Virus record (IMG/VR): IMGVR_UViG_3300033062_002592
Location: 42,320-106,319 of that record
Strand: one strand, 5' to 3'
From: a virus
Taxonomy: Duplodnaviria; Caudoviricetes
Length of the DNA stretch: 64,000 bases
In this document: positions 33,122 to 42,607 of the stretch, one piece after another
Layout: each line of letters opens with the position of its first letter
Position numbering within the stretch: the first letter of the stretch is position 1
Made by a program: the position numbers and the translations under genes
The notes under the pieces: generated by a model
The model's database searches: none
What the model was told of the DNA's origin: nothing
Seen by the model: only the letters and a program-made list of their open reading frames with translations

Positions 33122-34051
33122 TTAGCTTACGTTTATGCCAGCAATTGCACATATAGTATTACCTACTAGAACAACTGGAGCATAACGTGCAGTTATGTAC
33201 ACACCAACCGAGTCCCTCTCTTCAAGTGCTTTGATTCCTGTAGTTATTGGTCTACGTTCCACAAACATTCCCATTGGACTGTATTGACCCAATATGTTTG
33301 TAGTTCTTCCTCTTGAAAGCACATAAGCGCTACCTGTGGGACAGTTTATTGATGCATAAGCATCAAGACCCAATATATCTCCGAACTTACCCGGCACAGC
33401 CATCAAGCCTTCCTGCAGAATGGGTTCACCATAATGCATCAGCGATGTGAAGTGTGGAAGCTTCTCGATATGAGTCTTAGCCAATGGGTGCACCAATAGA
33501 GTATCTGGCATATAGTTGTACTGTTCTATCTGAGCCTTAGCGTTTATAATGTCGTATGTGCCTATGCCAGGTCCGCCAGAACCCGATATGACGAATTCTG
33601 TGCCGTCAAAAGCCAAGCTTTTGCCTGATGCAGTGACTGAACTTCCTGTGCCTGCGCCGATTGCAGAAATGCAATCTTTATCAATCTTGTTAGCAAATCT
33701 CAAAGCGCTACGCACAAGCTGGTCTTGCTGAATAGGTATCAATGAATCTTCAATCATTTCTTTCGTGATTATGAATCCGTGCGCAATCTTGTAAGGAACT
33801 ACGTTCACGGACGTATAAGTTGTAACATCAAGCGGAATCTCGACACCTTCAGCAACTTTCTGTACAACAGCAGCCGCACTACCCGACTGTTTCGGGAATG
33901 TAATGCTGTTAGATGCTGTTAGAGAATATTGCTGGAAAAACTGTCGTGCAACCATGTTTGGCATAGCAATTTGAACCACTTGCTGGTGTAATGCGGGATA
34001 AAGTAAACCCGCAGTAGTAACTGGTGATAGTATTTCTCTCTGTAAAGACAT
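33122..34051 (-). CDS. major capsid protein (HK97 fold)
   Basis: VAEGVEIP, K.AHGFIITKEMIEDS, KIDKD, PDTLLVHP, GDILGL; follows protease and decoration genes; strong SD. Confidence 0.9.
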   Translation of the reverse strand: MSLQREILSPVTTAGLLYPALHQQVVQIAMPNMVARQFFQQYSLTASNSITFPKQSGSAAAVVQKVAEGVEIPLDVTTYTSVNVVPYKIAHGFIITKEMIEDSLIPIQQDQLVRSALRFANKIDKDCISAIGAGTGSSVTASGKSLAFDGTEFVISGSGGPGIGTYDIINAKAQIEQYNYMPDTLLVHPLAKTHIEKLPHFTSLMHYGEPILQEGLMAVPGKFGDILGLDAYASINCPTGSAYVLSRGRTTNILGQYSPMGMFVERRPITTGIKALEERDSVGVYITARYAPVVLVGNTICAIAGINVS

Positions 34052-34132: not shown

Positions 34133-34579
34133 TTACTTTATTGTACTTATAAAGGCCACAACGCCCGTTCCAGAACCACTAACAACTCTACCTATTGGAT
34201 AACATGCTATACTTGATATAGCGGCGTTTGCATTTGCCCAACTATTGCTACAAACGTTTCCTGCTCCAGATAAGAACAATAAGTCTCCTGGATTGGAAGT
34301 TTGAGTTGACACAACCTTTGTTAGGTTTTTAGCCATTCCCCAAACAAGCACTGGGCATGTATCTCCATCAGATACGGTTGAAAGTGCAAGTCCTGCGACA
34401 GGAACTGCAGAACCGGACAATGTTCCAGATAATGGCTGAAATACATCTGTACTGTTATCTCCAGAAACAAATTGAACTATTTTGCCCGCGGTAATACTAC
34501 CAGATGCTCTGAATGTTACTGCAAGACATGGAGTTGTAGCTATATAATCTTTTGTTCCTTCCGTAAACATGAATGCCAT
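34133..34579 (-). CDS. capsid cement/decoration protein (DUF2190-like)
   Basis: ITAGKIV, GLAL, GD..PV.VWG, GDLL, IGRV pattern; between scaffold and MCP. Confidence 0.65.
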   Translation of the reverse strand: MAFMFTEGTKDYIATTPCLAVTFRASGSITAGKIVQFVSGDNSTDVFQPLSGTLSGSAVPVAGLALSTVSDGDTCPVLVWGMAKNLTKVVSTQTSNPGDLLFLSGAGNVCSNSWANANAAISSIACYPIGRVVSGSGTGVVAFISTIK

Positions 34580-34595
34580 TTTCCATCATTCCTCC

Positions 34596-35189
34596 TTAAT
34601 AGGATTCGAGAATGTTATGCTTCTGTGCGAAAGCTTTGACTTCTTGGAACCATTTAGGAACATCCTGTGCAGTGATTTCAACTGGAGTTTCATTGGCATC
34701 TTCGACTCTTGCTCCACCAATTTCTTTCTTGATAGGCTTTTTATCATCTTCCTCTGGTTCTTCACCATTCGGAGGCTGGTCGTGTTTCACATCTTTAGGA
34801 ATTCCGCCTTTAGCGGGAACATTAGTGAAAGTTGCTTTATCCTGCTTCACTGGAGCTGGAGCTACCTCTTTTTTAGCTTCCTCTGGTTTGCAACCCTCTT
34901 CTTTCTTTGCTTCATCCTTAACCTTTACTTTAAAGGCTTCCTCAAGTTTAATTCCTAAAGCAGCGATGGCTTGTTCAAGCTTTGTGAAAGCGGCTTCCTC
35001 TTTCTTAGCTTCATCGTCCTTTTTCTTAGCTTCGTCTTTCTTTCTCTCATCCTCATCTTTCTTTTTAGCCTCATCTTCGTATTTCTTAAGTCTCTCTTCG
35101 AGTTTTGCAATCTGTTCCCCAAGCAAAACTACTGCGTCTGTGCCTGCTGGTTTAAGTGTAGTGGCTTCGATTTCTGTTTTAGTTGACAT
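34596..35189 (-). CDS. nested in-frame scaffolding protein (internal start)
   Basis: GGAGG (35202-35198) 8 nt before in-frame ATG of MSTKTEIEA; like lambda C/Nu3 or Mu I/Z. Confidence 0.55.
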   Translation of the reverse strand: MSTKTEIEATTLKPAGTDAVVLLGEQIAKLEERLKKYEDEAKKKDEDERKKDEAKKKDDEAKKEEAAFTKLEQAIAALGIKLEEAFKVKVKDEAKKEEGCKPEEAKKEVAPAPVKQDKATFTNVPAKGGIPKDVKHDQPPNGEEPEEDDKKPIKKEIGGARVEDANETPVEITAQDVPKWFQEVKAFAQKHNILESY

Positions 35190-35804
35190 TTCTCTTTCCT
35201 CCATTTTTTTATTTTCTACTGAAAGTCTAGCCTCAGCTTCTTTCGAAGCCTCCGGCGTGACTGATTTCTCAGCTAATGCTGAGGTAATACCAGCGATAAA
35301 CGATACTGGTTGAAAATCGCTGGAACTGTAAGCGGGATCTGTTACTATAGAAGCTTCCCGCAATTTAATATTTTTAATAACATCATGTGCATTTTTACAT
35401 CTGCACATTTTAAAAGGTTTCGTTTGTTTACCACAAATTGAGCAAAATGCATCTGCTGTTGCGCCAATACTAATATGTCTCAACCTGCCCTTTAAGACAG
35501 CTCTTTGTATATATGGATCATCAACTTCAGCTTTGAATAAAACTCTTTTGTTTGGAACATCATGTACACCCTCTGTTAAACCACCAATAACATCTCTGGC
35601 TGATTTAGAGTGGTCTAATCTAAGCGTGGCTCCTTTAACTTGTTCTGCTATCTTTGATAATTCCTTTTCATCAATTGCAAAATTATTAGCACATACTGTG
35701 GTATTTACAAGTTCACCTGAAATAAGAAGGCTTTTATCTTCTCCTTCCTTTCCTGCAAACTCGACTATAGATGCGTCCCATGTTAAATTTAAATTATTAT
35801 CCAT
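34596..35804 (-). CDS. prohead protease with a C-terminal scaffold domain
   Basis: LRLDH, IGG, ISIG (catalytic Ser), CxxC..CxC insert, EASIVTDPAY; acidic/Lys-rich coiled-coil C-terminus. Confidence 0.85.
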   Translation of the reverse strand: MDNNLNLTWDASIVEFAGKEGEDKSLLISGELVNTTVCANNFAIDEKELSKIAEQVKGATLRLDHSKSARDVIGGLTEGVHDVPNKRVLFKAEVDDPYIQRAVLKGRLRHISIGATADAFCSICGKQTKPFKMCRCKNAHDVIKNIKLREASIVTDPAYSSSDFQPVSFIAGITSALAEKSVTPEASKEAEARLSVENKKMEEREMSTKTEIEATTLKPAGTDAVVLLGEQIAKLEERLKKYEDEAKKKDEDERKKDEAKKKDDEAKKEEAAFTKLEQAIAALGIKLEEAFKVKVKDEAKKEEGCKPEEAKKEVAPAPVKQDKATFTNVPAKGGIPKDVKHDQPPNGEEPEEDDKKPIKKEIGGARVEDANETPVEITAQDVPKWFQEVKAFAQKHNILESY

Positions 35805-35807
35805 ATT

Positions 35808-36062
35808 TCATCCCTTATTATGTGTTTTAAACCAAGATTTTGCTTTTTCCTTAGTCCATCCTTTAGATTTAGAAAAAAGGTAACTTTGTGTTCTCATGCC
35901 CGCTTTGCAGCGTCCTCCAACGTATTTTCCCTTAGGACATCCAACAACAGCTTTGATTCCTTTTCCTTCATCAATAGTAATCGTTCTGAAAGAATTGGGA
36001 TCAAAACTAGATTTATTTCCATGTCCTGACCTTATTGTTTCAGGATTTTCATCCCAAGGCAT
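35808..36062 (-). CDS. small basic head-morphogenesis-associated protein
   Basis: SFRTITI..GIKAVVG...QSYLF.K.KGWT.EKAK.W..H, a domain often found next to prohead proteases. Confidence 0.6.
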   Translation of the reverse strand: MPWDENPETIRSGHGNKSSFDPNSFRTITIDEGKGIKAVVGCPKGKYVGGRCKAGMRTQSYLFSKSKGWTKEKAKSWFKTHNKG

Positions 36063-36076
36063 AATTAGTCACACTT

Positions 36077-36337
36077 CTACCACGCTTGTGAAACATATGA
36101 TCCGCTAACGCTGTAAATTGAATGTTTGCTTCCACTTGTTATGCATAGATAAAGTATAGGTGCTCCAGTTGTTCCCATAGTAGTGGGTGAACCAGTCACT
36201 AATACTATGTCTCCAGGACTCATAGAACTGGATGGAATTGAACCAAATTGTTTAGTAAAGCAAAATATTTGTGCGTCAACCTCAGGATATTCATTCATTG
36301 GGTAAACCCTGTTTGGAACTGATGCCAAAATCTTCAT
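36077..36337 (-). CDS. hypothetical virion protein (start may be the TTG at 36328)
   Basis: 3 [ST]GS motifs in 86 aa; SD GGAGG. Confidence 0.6.
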   Translation of the reverse strand: MKILASVPNRVYPMNEYPEVDAQIFCFTKQFGSIPSSSMSPGDIVLVTGSPTTMGTTGAPILYLCITSGSKHSIYSVSGSYVSQAW

Positions 36338-36366: not shown

Positions 36367-37104
36367 TTATTCTATCTGTCCCAACAGCTTTTCTAAGCTG
36401 GTAAAGGGACTTGATGAAACTCCTCCTGCGAGAAGTTTCAAATTATTTACTTTTCCCTTAAAAAGCATGAATTTATACGCATCGGCTTTCTCAATCAGTG
36501 AAATGTCCCCATTTTCTTCAATCCATTCACGCATCTGTGATTCTGATAAAACAAGAGTTTCTGGAGTCTTAACCAAGACGTTTATAGTGCCATCTGCGCC
36601 TGTAACAATCGATATCTTTTCCCAATCATCCTTCAGGAATGTAGCAACATCCCAATCTGAGAATTCATCGCTGATAGGATGCGCATGTATGGATCCAATG
36701 ATTTTCTCATCTTTACGATATTCCTTAGTTTTCTTAAAAGTCACGGACATGTCTTCGCCAATTTCCATCATGTCCATGCGGATGCCCTCTGGAGTCTTGA
36801 CAAGAAGTGCGCCGAACTCTTTCTTTGTTTCGTGTGTGAATCTATAAATTTTCTGTATCTGATCCTCAAGAACTTCATTTAATAACAATTTTGATGAAAG
36901 ATACCATCTTTTACCGCAATCATCGCAAGCAAAACCAAATACAACCTCTGATTTCCGAACAATTTGAGCTTGAAGTCTGCTTCTCAAGTTTCCACCGCAG
37001 CGTGGGCATTGATAATGTTTTGCATGGGGTCGAAGTCTTCCACCTGCAAGAGCGGGATACAAAAGTGCTGGAGTCGTTACTGGTGATAGAATTTCTGTAC
37101 TCAT
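36367..37104 (-). CDS. Zn-finger + JAB/MPN metalloprotease-domain protein with an MCP-like N-terminal peptide
   Basis: CPRC...CDDC; KEFG...GSIHAHP.....SDWD JAB motif; N-terminus EILSPVTTPALLYPAL. Confidence 0.75.
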   Translation of the reverse strand: MSTEILSPVTTPALLYPALAGGRLRPHAKHYQCPRCGGNLRSRLQAQIVRKSEVVFGFACDDCGKRWYLSSKLLLNEVLEDQIQKIYRFTHETKKEFGALLVKTPEGIRMDMMEIGEDMSVTFKKTKEYRKDEKIIGSIHAHPISDEFSDWDVATFLKDDWEKISIVTGADGTINVLVKTPETLVLSESQMREWIEENGDISLIEKADAYKFMLFKGKVNNLKLLAGGVSSSPFTSLEKLLGQIE

Positions 37105-37256
37105 TTTTTTTCCTTCTTTTGAATCTCTATTTTTTGAAACTCAGGATCATGATATGCTCCGCAGGCTCCACCCGAGACATGGTCTGTCCACTGGTCTAAT
37201 GCTTTCTGTAGTTCTTGCTGAACTTTCTCTCCCATTTCCTTAGGAACTTTTGACAT
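37101..37256 (-). CDS. small hypothetical protein
   Basis: MSKVPKEMG..., SD AGGAGAG; ATGA overlap with the JAB gene. Confidence 0.55.
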   Translation of the reverse strand: MSKVPKEMGEKVQQELQKALDQWTDHVSGGACGAYHDPEFQKIEIQKKEKK

Positions 37257-37268
37257 AAAATCTCTCCT

Positions 37269-37301
37269 AAATTGATAAGCAAAAAAATTGCTTATCAATT
37301 T
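37269..37301. promoter_or_regulatory. perfect 14-bp inverted repeat (operator or hairpin)
   Basis: AAATTGATAAGCAA-aaaaa-TTGCTTATCAATTT. Confidence 0.6.
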
Positions 37302-38217: not shown

Positions 38218-38961
38218 TTATGCCACCTTCTTATTTGTGTATTGTAATCTAATATTGTGAATATACAAGCTTTCACTTGCAGCTCCGCTTGCATAGATAC
38301 TTATAGGTGAATCCATTGTAACAACATTACTTTCGTTAAAATTGGTCCAACTTCCCGAAAAAAGTCCTCCTGCGGTACCATTCCATGCACATCTAGCCAC
38401 CAATAAAGCATCGATTGTTTGAACTATTACCGATTTAGAACTTGCAGCGCTTCCAGATCCATATACTAAAAGTCTAAAACTTCCAACATCGAAATTAATA
38501 AAATCAATTTTGGTTGTGTGTTCTGGTAAAAATGCTCCATAAGTCGTAGCAAGAGTTAAAGTTTGTTGTGTAGGAGAAGAAAAAAGATTAATTTCTCCCC
38601 AAACTCCTTTAATACCATTAACGGTGGTTATACTACCAGAGTAATCAATAGCAAAAATATCTGCAGCAGGTGAATCTGTGTAATTTAAAATACTGAAAGC
38701 GTTGGTAGATCCATATCTTCGCCAGATGATATCTTTGTTTCCTCCACCTAAATTGCTTGCGCTTCTTGCAAAATACACAGAGTTTGAATTGGGTGAAGAA
38801 AGCATTGGATTTGTAGAACCATAAGCCAATAATGGATTAATTAGATAAATACCACTTCCGCTACTAGCCTTTAAAGTAGTTGTACCTAGAGTTTCCACAT
38901 TTACATCTCTGAATTTGTCCAATGGATGCGTTGCCATTTTTGGAATTTCATACATTGTCAT
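38218..38961 (-). CDS. putative virion fibre/decoration protein
   Basis: Beta-rich, SGS motifs, structural module. Confidence 0.55.
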   Translation of the reverse strand: MTMYEIPKMATHPLDKFRDVNVETLGTTTLKASSGSGIYLINPLLAYGSTNPMLSSPNSNSVYFARSASNLGGGNKDIIWRRYGSTNAFSILNYTDSPAADIFAIDYSGSITTVNGIKGVWGEINLFSSPTQQTLTLATTYGAFLPEHTTKIDFINFDVGSFRLLVYGSGSAASSKSVIVQTIDALLVARCAWNGTAGGLFSGSWTNFNESNVVTMDSPISIYASGAASESLYIHNIRLQYTNKKVA

Positions 38962-39686: not shown

Positions 39687-39929
39687 TCACATCTTAGGAA
39701 TAAGGAAACAACCGCAATTCGGATGCGCATTGATGATTCCCTCAACATCTTTCAGTTCTACTTCAACCCCATCCATGGATTTGCAAATTTCGCAATTTTC
39801 ATCAGCTTCTGGAGTTACCCAAACATATTTCACATAGTTCGAACTCTTATAGACATTGCGAATCCCTAGGTGAAACGCTGACAATAATGAATTTATAGAG
39901 AGCATTTCAATTCTGTTTTCAATTTTCAT
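39687..39929 (-). CDS. minimal Mu gpF/SPP1 gp7-like head morphogenesis domain
   Basis: W...D..CEIC..MDG...HPNCGC signature. Confidence 0.75.
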   Translation of the reverse strand: MKIENRIEMLSINSLLSAFHLGIRNVYKSSNYVKYVWVTPEADENCEICKSMDGVEVELKDVEGIINAHPNCGCFLIPKM

Positions 39930-40122: not shown

Positions 40123-40610
40123 TTCATCTTCAAACCCTTATAATCTTGTAACAATACATCTATCCTAGCCAATATAAATGAAGCCCAGAAAATTTCTTCT
40201 TCTCTTTTATTATTTTTTGTATCCTTAATCCTACAATTTAATTCTTCTTTCAATTTTTCCATTTCAGTAGGTGTAATAGTTTTTGCCTCAAGTTTTTCAA
40301 GAAGATGGTCTGTTTTAAATTCTTTCGGATGATGAAGGGCCTTCACAGCGTTGCTAGTCATGGCATTCCAAAACAGTTCCATTTTTGTTTCTAAACAAAC
40401 CAATCTATCTGTATTAACTGATACTTTATCTTCTAAACATTTAAGTCTTTCACAATCTGCTTTACTATCTACCCGAGTTTGTTCAAGGCTGGAAATCCTT
40501 TCTTTAATGTCTGCGCCTTCTTTAAATCTGGCCCAAAGAAAAGTCAAAATTGCAACAATTAAAGAACCAATTGAAGCAAAAAAAGGAAGATTTGAGGCGT
40601 CAAAACTCAT
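40119..40610 (-). CDS. N-terminally membrane-anchored coiled-coil protein
   Basis: TM segment FFASIGSLIVAILTFLW followed by heptad repeats. Confidence 0.65.
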   Translation of the reverse strand: MSFDASNLPFFASIGSLIVAILTFLWARFKEGADIKERISSLEQTRVDSKADCERLKCLEDKVSVNTDRLVCLETKMELFWNAMTSNAVKALHHPKEFKTDHLLEKLEAKTITPTEMEKLKEELNCRIKDTKNNKREEEIFWASFILARIDVLLQDYKGLKMK

Positions 40611-42607
40611 TATTCCAACTCTCCATTTTCTTTCATTTTAACCATTTCGTCCAATATTTTATCGAAACTTTTAATAGTTTCGGTCTTCAACTCTGAAAGA
40701 GGTTCCAAGTCTTCCTGTTTTAATGATAAATCATCTTCATTTCCCAGTGCCGTGTTTGCATTCATGCGCCCCATCAGATAACTTGAAACAATGTTTTCAT
40801 TGATAAGTTCCTTGGCGGCGTCACGGGCTTCTCTCTTAACATCCTTGACCAATTTAGCATCATCTTTCAAGTCAAACTTTGTCTTTTGAGTCAAACCAAG
40901 CATTTTTTCCCTGAAATTCTCTTCCAATTTCAATAATTGAATCTTTTTAGTTTTCAAATCTTCCAATTTCATGTGACTCTCCGGAGGTTTTTTTGATTGC
41001 TGTCTAACTCTATTCTGCTCAGGAGCTTTAATAGCACCACCAGGTTTGGGTGGAAAGCCCGAAGGCTGAGTTCCCGGCTCTTTTGATATTAATTCATCAT
41101 ATTTTTTATCCTGCATAGACCTAAAACCCATTTCTTCTCTGCATTCGTTTACACTTACAGCACCAGCCTGCATCATTTGTATTAATCTTTGGCTACGCAT
41201 GTTTTTGTCTTCTTCAATAATTGGTTTCCAAACTATATGAGCATTTTCAGTTTTATCTCCAAACTTCATTTTAATAAGAGGCTCGAATATATATTTCTCG
41301 ATTGGATCTGCAATGAATTCTTGCAGAACTTGCAGTCTTGTAACAAAATCGTGAAGTACAACTTCGGCGATACCTCTTGATGTGCGATACGTATAACCCA
41401 TCATAATTGGTGGAACACCGAGTGATTGATATCTACGAAGCAATAGAAAATCTACCCACCATTCTAATCTTAATTCTGAAGCCATTGTTTTGAATTCTTC
41501 CATAGATACATCACCTTTGGTGAATATCATTGTAGCCGCACTGCGCGTTTTCAAGGCATTCATTAAATCTCCCATTTGACCCGTGCTATAAGGCTTCTCT
41601 GGAGTTCCACCTTTAACAATCAATGGTGGCACTGCTCTGCTGTGAATCCATGTTGCAGCGTCATTTTCAAACTGCATAAGCAATTCATTATTCTTTATAA
41701 TTGGCATCAGCACGCTGTTGCCATATGCGGATTCATATCCCCATGATGCAGGACGATATCTGCAATGAATGCATGATTCATTGTCTATCAGAACGGGTGG
41801 AAATGCCATCCATTGTATATAACCATACTGATTACCATATGAATCTCTTCGAACACGCATGTATAATGGATCCAAATCTTTTAGAGCAACAATTGTTTTT
41901 GCATCGGGTGCTCTACCCATCCTATCGGCGACAAAGTTTTTCTTTGTTCCATTATCTTCAATTATTGCTGGTTTCACCTTATTTAATGGAATATTCAAAC
42001 TATTCAAATCATCCTTTGAATAATTTTCGCCTTTATATTCATACATTGGCATTGTAGTTTTAACGGTTTTATCCCATTGAATCTCTGTGTAACTATTACC
42101 ATAAACGAGACAATCTGTAGCCATAACAAGCATATGCTGCATTAAATCCAATCTTTGAATCATGTCATTCAGATAATCTATAACTTCTTCACTTTCATGG
42201 CTGATAGTAAACCCCTTTCCAACTGCCAAATTTACCTGCATTTGCACAGCTTGCTGAATATCAGGTTGTGACCTGTACATTTTGCGGTATTTCGGCAAAT
42301 CCGAGATTGGGTTAACACCGTAAACTTTAGTGTAAACATCTGCATAAGGACTCTGAACAAGACCAAACCCAGAACCTTCGGGTAAACCTCGGGATCCGTA
42401 GCCTAGTCCTCTTAAAAGATATAATGCAGGCTGTTCAGTCCACTGCGGCGGCACATCAAAGTCGAATTCTTCGGCAATTTCTTTAGGCAAAACTCTTGCT
42501 TTCAGCTCTCCAAGAGTCAGCATCGCTGTTTGCATTGCAGCATCGTATCTGGCTCTTGCCATTGGCCGCCACATTGGCGGTCTTTTTATTTCATTTTCTT
42601 TGCTCAT
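40610..42607 (-). CDS. portal protein
   Basis: CLVYGNSY.EI, LDP, IHCR, YGNS.L, LGVPPI.MG, SVNECREEMG. Confidence 0.88.
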   Translation of the reverse strand: MSKENEIKRPPMWRPMARARYDAAMQTAMLTLGELKARVLPKEIAEEFDFDVPPQWTEQPALYLLRGLGYGSRGLPEGSGFGLVQSPYADVYTKVYGVNPISDLPKYRKMYRSQPDIQQAVQMQVNLAVGKGFTISHESEEVIDYLNDMIQRLDLMQHMLVMATDCLVYGNSYTEIQWDKTVKTTMPMYEYKGENYSKDDLNSLNIPLNKVKPAIIEDNGTKKNFVADRMGRAPDAKTIVALKDLDPLYMRVRRDSYGNQYGYIQWMAFPPVLIDNESCIHCRYRPASWGYESAYGNSVLMPIIKNNELLMQFENDAATWIHSRAVPPLIVKGGTPEKPYSTGQMGDLMNALKTRSAATMIFTKGDVSMEEFKTMASELRLEWWVDFLLLRRYQSLGVPPIMMGYTYRTSRGIAEVVLHDFVTRLQVLQEFIADPIEKYIFEPLIKMKFGDKTENAHIVWKPIIEEDKNMRSQRLIQMMQAGAVSVNECREEMGFRSMQDKKYDELISKEPGTQPSGFPPKPGGAIKAPEQNRVRQQSKKPPESHMKLEDLKTKKIQLLKLEENFREKMLGLTQKTKFDLKDDAKLVKDVKREARDAAKELINENIVSSYLMGRMNANTALGNEDDLSLKQEDLEPLSELKTETIKSFDKILDEMVKMKENGELE

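What the first reader, a model, noticed from the sequence alone, without database searches (positions are those of the whole stretch)
36367..37104. JAB/MPN protease carrying a copy of the major capsid protein N-terminus
Seen: the JAB protein begins MSTEILSPVTTPALLYPAL and the MCP (34051) begins MSLQREILSPVTTAGLLYPAL, so 14 of 16 residues are identical. The codons differ at many synonymous positions (LLYPAL = ctt ttg tat ccc gct ctt vs tta ctt tat ccc gca tta), which points to selection on the peptide rather than a recent duplication. A CxxC-CxxC finger and an E...HAH......SxxD JAB motif follow. Known: JAB domains remove ubiquitin-like modifiers, and ubiquitin-like conjugation is used in antiviral defence and occurs in several archaeal lineages. 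Inference: the N-arm mimic is a packaging tag that builds a de-conjugase into the capsid lattice, either to strip host Ubl marks from virion proteins or for delivery on infection.
Basis: partly seen in the sequence, partly recalled or inferred. Interest (0 to 1): 0.85.

Follow-up and report, generated by a model that had tools for sequence, protein, structure and literature searches.

The report
Capsid-arm peptide on a viral JAB protease
A zinc protease of the deubiquitinase (JAB/MPN) type, encoded among the head-assembly genes of an uncultivated, probably archaeal, tailed virus, begins with a conserved copy of the capsid protein's N-terminal arm, which most likely brings the enzyme to the assembling capsid.

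Summary
The 245-aa ORF (36367-37104, minus) and the HK97-fold capsid protein (MCP, 33122-34051, minus) share 14 of 16 residues at their N-termini. This is the only outlier among 42,179 pairs of ORF N-termini in the 106-kb genome.

The protein is a very divergent JAB/MPN protease. Its AF2 model matches only JAMM enzymes, and E96, H140, H142, S149 and D152 are invariant.

The peptide is the distal N-arm of the MCP, the most conserved part of that protein. About 60 JAB homologs keep it, at 69-81% identity where the MPN domain is 43-48%. Synonymous sites are saturated, and each copy has its own signature (JAB P-[SA], MCP A-G). It is therefore an old, separately selected mimic, not a recent duplication. 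I found no co-variation with the cognate MCP (p = 0.31), but the MCP peptide hardly varies.

The gene sits next to protease-scaffold, cement and MCP genes in all 10 related viruses examined. A deeper clade lacks the peptide.

Best reading (about 45%): the peptide uses N-arm contacts to recruit the enzyme to procapsids. The host-Ubl-stripping idea has no support. This scan noted the same stretch once before, in an overlapping window.

The parts
36367..37104 (-). JAB/MPN (JAMM) protease gene, 245 aa: N-arm-like peptide, Zn ribbon, MPN domain
   Evidence: ORF. AF2 model. Structure matches to JAMM enzymes only. 38 plus 28 homologs.
37048..37104 (-). Codons 1-19, MSTEILSPVTTPALLYPAL: copy of the MCP distal N-arm. 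The core is hydrophobic-hydrophobic-Y-P-x-L.
   Evidence: Y16 and P17 are nearly invariant in 38 homologs. Disordered in the AF2 monomer (pLDDT below 50).
36916..37008 (-). Four-Cys Zn ribbon (C33, C36, C60, C63)
   Evidence: C60 and C63 are invariant, C33 and C36 nearly so. Weak Pfam Zn_ribbon_TFIIS and DUF7351 hits. Absent in the distant homologs P0050 and P0059, which keep the peptide.
36388..36882 (-). MPN domain, residues 75-239, with E96 and H140-x-H142-x6-S149-x2-D152
   Evidence: PfJAMM1 Z 8.7, AMSH/Sst2 Z 8.2, AF2198 Z 8.0, Rpn11, Cap3 and a bacterial Ubl-DUB. E96, H140, H142, S149 and D152 are invariant across 23 diverse homologs.
33122..34051 (-). Major capsid protein, HK97 fold, 309 aa
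   Evidence: Pfam PF05065 1.1e-9. AF2 model. Foldseek matches to HK97, Haloferax tailed virus 1 and encapsulins at E 1e-12 to 1e-13.
33989..34036 (-). MCP residues 6-21, EILSPVTTAGLLYPAL: distal N-arm and the best-conserved stretch of the MCP
   Evidence: Y18 and P19 are invariant; P10, V11, T13 and L21 are at least 90% conserved in 41 MCPs down to 39% identity. The Pfam profile starts at residue 17. AF2 places an N-arm helix at residues 10-32.
34596..35804 (-). Prohead protease fused to a scaffold (402 aa). The C-terminal helix VPxWFxEΦ is a candidate N-arm-binding element.
   Evidence: D64-H65, S112, W385 and E388 are invariant in 8 homologs. Weak PHROG 'head maturation protease' hit. The protease and scaffold parts are separate ORFs in L018 and L012.
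34133..34579 (-). Cement/decoration-like protein
   Evidence: Pfam Phage_cement_2, 4.5e-4. Syntenic in all loci.
36077..36337 (-). 86-aa protein directly downstream of JAB, with a conserved N-terminus ASVPNRVYP
   Evidence: The longer L016 homolog gives a weak Phage_cement_2 hit.
35808..36062 (-). 84-aa conserved head-module protein, fused to the protease in L012 and L029
37101..37298 (-). 65-aa ORF whose stop overlaps the JAB start (ATGA). It is fused to JAB in some homologs.
   Evidence: N-terminal fusion in P0031, P0032 and P0039; insertion between the two CxxC pairs in P0042 and P0043.
40610..42607 (-). Portal protein, at the start of the head module
   Evidence: Pfam Phage_portal 2.2e-9 and Portal_Mu.
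39687..39929 (-). Mu F / SPP1 gp7-like minor head protein domain
   Evidence: PHROG minor head protein, 7.9e-8.

Best explanation
The gene encodes a catalytically intact but highly divergent JAMM/MPN zinc protease (Zn ribbon plus MPN domain). It is a fixed member of the head-morphogenesis module of an uncultivated lineage of tailed, probably archaeal, HK97-type viruses. Its first 19 residues copy the distal N-arm of the capsid protein, the most conserved segment of that protein. The copy has been kept by purifying selection, independently of the MCP copy, across the whole clade.

The most likely mechanism is that the flexible peptide occupies the site or sites that an MCP N-arm occupies during procapsid assembly. 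Candidates are the scaffold C-terminal helix, the groove under a neighbouring subunit's E-loop, and an antiparallel partner N-arm. The protease would then be recruited to, or built into, the procapsid and would act there on a virion-associated substrate.

Shown: the peptide identity, its conservation, the MPN fold and active site, and the synteny. Inferred: binding, presence in procapsids or virions, and the substrate.
For: - The match is unique in the genome.
- The peptide occurs only in JAB and MCP in every locus examined.
- It is kept in all full-length homologs of the clade. It is 69-81% identical where the MPN domain is 43-48%.
- pS is 0.73-0.76 and pN is 0.13-0.28.
- Each copy has a stable signature, JAB P-[SA] and MCP A-G plus two extra residues, so there has been no gene conversion.
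- The peptide survives loss of the Zn ribbon in P0050 and P0059.
- In the MCP it is the N-arm: Y18 and P19 are invariant in 41 MCPs, and AF2 gives an N-arm helix at residues 10-32.
- In the JAB model it is a free, disordered tail and is not packed on the enzyme.
- JAB lies next to protease-scaffold, cement and MCP genes in 10 of 10 related viruses.
- Scaffolding proteins bind the MCP N-terminus, and N-arms pair with each other, in SPP1 (PMC6813328) and 80alpha (PMC5644958).
- Two homologs carry an intein inside the HxH motif. This fits a site that is highly conserved and needed.
Against: - There is no direct evidence of binding or of presence in virions.
- A deeper clade keeps the JAB gene in the same position without the peptide, so the enzyme's link to the head module does not depend on it. 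In L022 the MCP starts MALVRDAFTWVDTGAIAYPAL. P0051-53, P0056-58, P0060, P0062 and P0068 also lack the peptide.
- In P0032 the peptide is internal, behind a fused 44-residue domain, so a free N-terminus is not required.
- In L014 and P0037 only the YPxL half is kept.
- No co-variation with the cognate MCP is seen.
- In L021 the scaffold C-terminus differs while both peptides are kept.
Confidence: 0.45

Rival explanations
1. Shared processing site. Both N-termini are recognised and cut by the same protease, either the prohead serine protease fused to the scaffold or the JAB enzyme itself. On this view the peptide is a common propeptide or cleavage signal rather than a docking element.
For: A protease-scaffold fusion with invariant D64-H65 and S112 lies between the two genes. 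Phage P2 gpO cuts the N-termini of its MCP and portal, and 80alpha capsid and scaffold share an N-terminal motif cut by host Prp (my own knowledge, not checked here). T4 capsid-targeting sequences are cut off by the prohead protease after targeting (papers listed).
Against: The peptide is the best conserved part of the MCP, and it runs into the generic HK97 N-arm motif covered by the Pfam profile; removed propeptides are usually less conserved than the mature protein. The motif is absent from the scaffold, which the protease must also degrade. There is no conserved small-small or GG site for a JAMM cut: JAB residues 10-13 vary.
Confidence: 0.2
2. Common client signal. The peptide is read by a third factor that both proteins need and that is not part of the capsid lattice. 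Examples are a host chaperonin or prefoldin, or a virus-encoded modifying enzyme (the virus carries a large glycosylation set and a Ubl/E1 operon).
For: The genome encodes a ThiF E1 (1.5e-28), a ThiS/MoaD-like 72-aa protein and a second weak JAB. Other readers of this scan noted many glycosyltransferases (unchecked). The Ubl tail ...PSTTGA loosely resembles MCP ...SPVTTAG.
Against: The TT pair is not conserved in the JAB copies; the conserved core is hydrophobic-hydrophobic-YPxL. The peptide has no lysine to accept a Ubl. The resemblance to the Ubl tail is three residues and could be chance.
Confidence: 0.13
3. Assembly regulator or decoy. The JAB peptide competes with MCP N-arms for their partner. 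It would cap, delay or nucleate lattice growth, for example by filling the five N-arm sites left empty around the portal vertex. The enzyme activity would be secondary.
For: N-arms make inter-capsomer and N-arm to N-arm contacts in SPP1. The JAB gene lies between the portal/neck genes and the scaffold/MCP genes.
Against: The JAMM site is invariant and hosts inteins, which argues that catalysis matters. The clade without the peptide keeps the enzyme. No stoichiometry data exist.
Confidence: 0.1
4. Functionless relic. The 5' end of the JAB gene was once copied from the MCP gene by recombination and means nothing now.
For: Both genes lie in one operon, 2.3 kb apart.
Against: Synonymous sites are saturated while the peptide is held. 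At large distances it is the best-conserved part of the protein. It persists through domain loss and fusions.
Confidence: 0.02

Closest known systems
T4 capsid targeting sequence (CTS) on internal proteins, and the propeptides of head proteins in giant phages
   Same: A short N-terminal peptide on a non-structural protein that would direct it into the assembling prohead. Reviewed in PMC9026906 and PMC5694885 (listed).
   Different: As far as I know, the T4 CTS does not resemble the MCP. It is shared by several cargo proteins and is cut off by the prohead protease. Here the peptide copies the MCP's own N-arm and sits on a single protein family. Cleavage is unknown.
Encapsulin cargo-loading peptides
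   Same: A short terminal peptide docks an enzyme cargo onto the inside of an HK97-fold shell. The MCP model matches encapsulin shells, including EncA bound to a targeting peptide (7s2t).
   Different: Encapsulin peptides are usually C-terminal and do not mimic the shell protein. No docking was tested here.
Scaffold-N-arm and N-arm-N-arm contacts in SPP1, 80alpha, P22 and phi29
   Same: These give the likely binding sites. The scaffold C-terminal helix binds the MCP N-terminal helix, and extended N-arms pair across capsomers (PMC6813328; PMC5644958).
   Different: In those phages only the MCP carries the N-arm. I know of no enzyme with an N-arm copy.
Archaeal and bacterial JAMM deconjugases (PfJAMM1, AF2198, Cap3, the bacterial Ubl-DUB of 8tyx) and eukaryotic AMSH/Rpn11
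   Same: MPN fold (Z 7.5-8.7) and the E...HxH...SxxD zinc site.
   Different: Sequence similarity is at noise level: Pfam Prok-JAB scores 14 bits for the query, and a PDB profile search gives E 0.24 for Cap3. The HxH-to-Ser spacing is 6, not 7. There is an N-terminal Zn ribbon and an N-arm peptide. The gene sits in a head module, not a Ubl operon. The substrate is unknown.
Lambda gpK (MPN plus NlpC/P60) with the ubiquitin-like tail assembly protein gpI
   Same: A precedent for an MPN domain inside a virion-morphogenesis module (my own knowledge; Iyer, Burroughs and Aravind 2006; not checked here).
   Different: gpK is a tail-tip protein. No Ubl-like partner was identified in this head module.

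Membership tests
JAMM/MPN+ (JAB) metalloprotease | MPN fold | tested here: met
   AF2 model pLDDT 78.7. All top Foldseek and VIA matches are MPN domains: PfJAMM1 Z 8.7 (rmsd 3.0 over 113 residues), Sst2/AMSH Z 8.2, AF2198 Z 8.0. Z of about 8 is middling on its own; the match counts because only one fold appears in the list.
JAMM/MPN+ (JAB) metalloprotease | Catalytic Glu plus the HxH...S..D zinc site | tested here: met
   E96, H140, H142, S149 and D152 are invariant in 38 close and 23 diverse homologs. The His-to-Ser spacing is 6 residues; the canonical 7 is from my own knowledge.
JAMM/MPN+ (JAB) metalloprotease | Sequence-profile membership (Pfam PF14464 Prok-JAB above its cut-off of 25 bits) | tested here: inconclusive
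   The query scores 14.1 bits, E 0.044. 13 of 23 family members hit at E up to 0.01, best 1.6e-6.
JAMM/MPN+ (JAB) metalloprotease | Cleaves a Ubl or another (iso)peptide bond | not testable with these tools
   Needs an enzyme assay.
Capsid or compartment targeting peptide (T4 CTS, encapsulin CLP) | The peptide binds shell or scaffold and is enough for encapsidation | not testable with these tools
No proteomics exist for this uncultivated virus.
Capsid or compartment targeting peptide (T4 CTS, encapsulin CLP) | A short terminal peptide conserved beyond the rest of the cargo protein | tested here: met
   Peptide 69-81% identical against 43-48% for the MPN domain and 30-36% for residues 20-69 in distant homologs.
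Capsid or compartment targeting peptide (T4 CTS, encapsulin CLP) | The same tag is shared by several cargo proteins | tested here: not met
   A motif scan of the genome and all fetched loci finds it only in JAB and MCP.
HK97-fold major capsid protein (for the partner gene) | HK97 fold with N-arm, E-loop, spine helix, and P and A domains | tested here: met
   Pfam PF05065 and PF25209. AF2 model with a spine helix at 105-133. Foldseek matches to HK97 and HFTV1 at E about 1e-12.
HK97-type (S78-like) prohead serine protease (for the neighbouring gene) | Catalytic His and Ser in a herpesvirus-protease-like fold | tested here: inconclusive
   D64-H65 and S112 are invariant. Only a weak PHROG hit, 0.0049, and no Pfam hit. 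The fold was not predicted.

The most novel reading that the evidence does not exclude
The N-arm copy is a portable capsid-incorporation tag: the virus loads a deubiquitinase-type protease into or onto its HK97 capsid by molecular mimicry of the capsid protein's own assembly arm. The enzyme would then act inside the particle, or after ejection into an archaeal host, on ubiquitin-like conjugates, either the virus's own Ubl/E1 system or a host Ubl-based defence. This would be the first case of cargo targeting by MCP mimicry and the first JAMM enzyme that is a virion head component.
Probability: 0.25. Interest if true: 0.85.

Novelty: new variant of a known kind. Interest (0 to 1): 0.66.

Why it matters
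Terminal peptides that direct proteins into capsids or protein compartments are known. A peptide that does so by copying the capsid protein's own N-arm is not known to me. Nor is a JAMM/MPN protease that is a fixed gene of a head-assembly module.

If the reading holds, it gives three things:
- A simple, testable rule for loading cargo into HK97-type shells.
- A new role for deubiquitinase-like enzymes in virion morphogenesis or early infection of archaea.
- A handle on what the very conserved N-arm of this capsid family binds.

The virus also carries its own Ubl/E1 genes, so the enzyme may connect capsid assembly with ubiquitin-like modification in archaeal viruses.

Tried and rejected
No binding test was possible.
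- A single-protein scan of IMG/VR with JAB found nothing. The alignment-based scan found 5 loci.
- Two scans of GTDB genomes, with the MCP and JAB alignments, found no provirus. A tblastn of the MCP against GenBank phages found nothing. The listing of cluster members gave no names. It is probably archaeal: the best matches of the viral RFC small subunit are archaeal RFCS (1iqp 6.9e-54, 2chq 1.4e-49).
- A profile search of PDB sequences gave no significant hit.
- Idea that the first half of the peptide mimics the C-terminal tail of the virus's Ubl (...PSTTGA against ...SPVTTAG). The STTGA tail is conserved in the relative G001, but TT is not conserved in the JAB copies. I kept this only as a weak part of one rival.
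- Idea that the scaffold's internal start region (MSTKTEIEATT...) carries the same motif. Rejected: its conserved motif is KPAGxDAVVLL.
- Idea that the neighbouring 86-aa protein's ASVPNRVYP is the same tag. Rejected: the pattern differs and it is shared with other paralogs.
- YPxL is also the ALIX-binding late-domain motif of retroviruses (my own knowledge). I did not pursue this. In this MCP family the YP is part of the generic HK97 N-arm motif, and I know of no archaeal ALIX.
- The co-variation test was run and gave no signal; its power is low.
- Two literature searches found no paper on a JAB/MPN gene in a head module.

Full report
**1. Observation**

The minus-strand ORF 36367-37104 encodes 245 aa starting MSTEILSPVTTPALLYPALAGG. 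The ORF 33122-34051 encodes a 309-aa protein starting MSLQREILSPVTTAGLLYPALHQQ. Each ORF begins at the first start codon after a stop and has an SD-like site. The JAB start overlaps the stop of a 65-aa upstream ORF (ATGA).

I compared the 30-residue N-termini of all 292 ORFs of at least 60 aa in the 106,319-bp genome, which makes 42,179 pairs. This pair is the only one above 10 of 16. The runners-up, at 9-10, look like related proteins.

**2. What the protein is**

Pfam alone is weak: Prok-JAB scores 14 bits, E 0.044, with several Zn-ribbon families at similar levels. An AF2 model built on 38 homologs has pLDDT 78.7 and shows three parts:
- a disordered N-terminal tail (residues 1-20, pLDDT below 50);
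- a small beta Zn-ribbon;
- a domain at residues 75-239.

The structural neighbours of that domain are exclusively JAMM/MPN proteins. They include PfJAMM1 (Z 8.7, rmsd 3.0, 113 residues aligned), AMSH/Sst2 (Z 8.2), AF2198 (Z 8.0), Rpn11, Cap3 and a bacterial Ubl-deubiquitinase.

E96, H140, H142, S149 and D152 are invariant in 38 close homologs and in 23 diverse ones, some only 28-36% identical. 13 of the 23 reach Prok-JAB at E up to 0.01, best 1.6e-6. Two homologs, P0039 and P0040, carry an intein with a DUF559-type endonuclease exactly between the two His of HxH. Inteins favour strongly conserved, needed sites.

I conclude that this is an active-type JAMM protease of a very divergent family. 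A profile search of PDB sequences finds nothing significant.

**3. What the peptide is in the capsid protein**

The 309-aa protein is an HK97-fold MCP. It hits Pfam PF05065 and PF25209, and its AF2 model matches HK97, Haloferax tailed virus 1 and encapsulin shells at E about 1e-12. It has no delta domain. The scaffold is fused to the prohead protease in the 402-aa ORF 34596-35804, where D64-H65, S112 and a C-terminal VPxWFxE helix are invariant.

The Pfam capsid profile begins at residue 17, and AF2 places the N-arm helix at residues 10-32. The shared peptide is therefore the distal N-arm. It is the best-conserved segment of the MCP: in 41 full-length MCPs down to 39% identity, Y18 and P19 are invariant, and P10, V11, T13 and L21 are at least 90% conserved. 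More remote MCPs, at 24-29% identity (L002-L011), have a different N-terminus and no JAB gene nearby.

**4. Evolution of the copy**

Three searches together gave about 60 JAB sequences with a visible N-terminus: the 5.8-billion-protein search, the exhaustive profile search and the metagenome scan. Findings:
- Every member of the clade keeps M-S-T-x-hydrophobic-L-x-P-V-x-x-P-S-hydrophobic-hydrophobic-Y-P-x-L. This holds down to profile E about 1e-28. It includes P0050 and P0059, which have lost the Zn ribbon, and P0042 and P0043, which have an insertion inside it.
- In distant members the peptide is 69-81% identical to the query, while the MPN domain is 43-48% and residues 20-69 are 30-36%.
- Over the 16 codons, pS is 0.73-0.76 within JAB, within MCP and between them, which is saturated. 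pN is 0.28 for JAB and 0.13 for MCP.
- The two copies keep their own signatures throughout: JAB has P-[SA] where the MCP has A-G, and the MCP has two extra residues after the start. They have evolved separately for a long time without gene conversion.
- Across eight virus pairs the JAB peptide is no closer to its own MCP than to the others (0.632 against 0.622, permutation p = 0.31). Both are held to one consensus. The MCP peptide hardly varies, so this test is weak.
- The window's 14 of 16 is the closest of the eight pairs tabulated; the others share 6 to 12 of 16.
- The minimal core is hydrophobic-hydrophobic-Y-P-x-L, which is all that L014 and P0037 retain.
- In 12 viruses both genes could be read, and the motif is in both. 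It occurs in no third protein.
- A deeper JAB clade lacks the peptide (P0051-53, P0056-58, P0060, P0062, P0068). In the one such virus with its MCP in view (L022), the MCP keeps only AYPAL, and the JAB gene still sits directly upstream of the protease-scaffold gene.

**5. Context**

The gene order on the minus strand is: portal, small proteins, Mu F-like minor head domain, DUF5661-like, neck/tail-completion-like protein, two [S/T]GS-rich proteins, the 65-aa ORF, JAB, the 86-aa protein, the 84-aa protein, protease-scaffold, cement-like protein, MCP. JAB keeps this place next to protease-scaffold, cement and MCP in all 10 related viruses with enough flank. It behaves as a core head-module gene, not a patchy accessory gene.

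The genome also encodes a large terminase, a family-B DNA polymerase and an RFC small subunit. The best matches of the RFC are archaeal (1iqp 6.9e-54, 2chq 1.4e-49), ahead of eukaryotic and far ahead of bacterial clamp loaders. The host is therefore probably an archaeon. No provirus or named relative was found.

A lead from another reader of this scan held up in part. Outside the window the genome has a 72-aa ThiS/MoaD-like protein ending ...GDVIVIQPSTTGA, a weak second JAB and a ThiF E1 at 1.5e-28. The Ubl is also present in the relative G001.

**6. Mechanism**

In the tailed phages that have been studied, the scaffold's C-terminal helix binds the MCP N-terminal helix in the procapsid. After scaffold release the N-arm extends under the neighbour's E-loop and pairs antiparallel with an N-arm of the next capsomer (SPP1, PMC6813328; 80alpha, PMC5644958). 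A flexible tail on another protein with the same sequence should be able to use one of these sites.

This is the simplest account of four facts:
- the peptide is a free, disordered tail;
- it is the best-conserved part of the JAB protein at large distances;
- it survives domain loss and fusions;
- the gene is embedded in the head module.

I put this reading at about 0.45. The steps from peptide identity to binding, and from binding to incorporation, are inference. The substrate is open. It could be the virus's own Ubl conjugates, a head protein or a host Ubl.

Rivals:
- A shared cleavage or recognition site for the prohead protease or for JAB itself (0.2). The main argument against is that the segment is the most conserved part of the MCP and is continuous with the generic N-arm motif.
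- A shared client signal for a chaperone or modifying enzyme (0.13).
- A competitive regulator of lattice growth, for example at the portal vertex (0.1).
- A relic (0.02), contradicted by the selection data.

**7. Comparison with what is known**

In function the peptide resembles the T4 capsid targeting sequence and encapsulin cargo-loading peptides. It differs from them in that it mimics the shell protein itself and is carried by one enzyme family only.

As an enzyme the protein passes the fold and active-site tests for JAMM/MPN+. It fails the curated sequence cut-off, has an unusual His-to-Ser spacing and lies outside any Ubl operon. Lambda gpK is a precedent for an MPN domain in virion assembly, but in the tail (my own knowledge).

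My two literature searches found no description of a JAB gene in a head module or of an N-arm mimic.

**8. Limits**

Only one virus of the peptide-less clade has its MCP in view.

Noticed in passing
P0039 and P0040 (JAB homologs): Two JAB homologs carry a roughly 400-aa intein (Intein_splicing/Hint plus a DUF559/MTES_1575 endonuclease) inserted exactly between the two histidines of the catalytic HxH motif (...H | C...HN | C-H-P...).
   Followed up: partly
L012:4461-6259, L017:6701-8441, L029:12752-13843, L042:13444, L043:4786; proteins P0165, P0171, P0174, P0183, P0188-P0196: In many relatives the MCP gene is interrupted within or just after the N-arm coding region. The breaks fall after ...SPVTT, after ...LLY or after ...QIAMP(N/K). 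The inserts often encode DUF559, MTES_1575, Vsr-like or LAGLIDADG endonucleases. I did not resolve whether they are introns or inteins. At least three different sites are used.
   Followed up: partly
window 37101-37298 (-); P0031, P0032, P0039, P0042, P0043, P0044: The 65-aa ORF that overlaps the JAB start (motif QKAL-x-EW-x(3)-VF) is fused in frame to the JAB N-terminus in some viruses. In others it is inserted between the two CxxC pairs of the Zn ribbon. This domain-fusion pattern suggests the two proteins work together. Its function is unknown.
   Followed up: partly
genome 13143-19996, outside the window (L019:644-7497): An operon with a 72-aa ThiS/MoaD-like protein ending PSTTGA, a 413-aa protein, a weak JAB (379 aa, Prok-JAB 5e-4) and a ThiF E1 (1.5e-28). 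It is followed by a run of small proteins that end in a common ...[RK]KKG-x-[FIV]-[IV]-G-E-R-V-x-Q tail, and then a HerA/TrwB-like ATPase. The Ubl, with its STTGA tail, is also in the relative G001 (L030).
   Followed up: partly
window 36077-36337 (-) and homologs L012:1353-1871, L014:8773-9048, L016:6785-7339, L017:3284-3634, L018:3429-3752: The gene just downstream of JAB varies from 86 to about 550 aa, but its product always begins (M)ASVPNRVYP-x(2)-E[FY]. The L016 version gives a weak Phage_cement_2 hit. A similar start (MTMYE[IV]P-x-M-x-THPLDKFR) is on window 38218-38961 and L017:1894-2340.
   Followed up: no
L018:3798-5589; L012:2143-3912: In these relatives the protease-scaffold gene is split into separate protease and scaffold ORFs. 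In L018 a small endonuclease-like ORF lies between them. In L012 and L029 the 84-aa protein (window 35808-36062) is fused to the protease N-terminus.
   Followed up: no
L015:4050-7127; L032:1270-4575: Portal genes of relatives contain inteins (Intein_splicing, LAGLIDADG). Selfish elements are unusually dense in the head genes of this lineage: portal, JAB, protease-scaffold and MCP.
   Followed up: no
L012:4461-4600 (MCP N-terminus): One MCP has a 13-residue insertion (GSDGKTLIGSVKS) between the two halves of the N-arm motif (EILSPVTT | GLLYPAL). Its cognate JAB peptide has no insertion. The motif is therefore bipartite.
   Followed up: no
genome 26529-27503 and 36099-38432 (L033:6029-7003, L033:15599-17932): The virus encodes an archaeal-type RFC small subunit (best PDB hits are Pyrococcus and Archaeoglobus RFCS) and a family-B DNA polymerase. 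The host is probably archaeal. The window contains no tRNA genes.
   Followed up: partly
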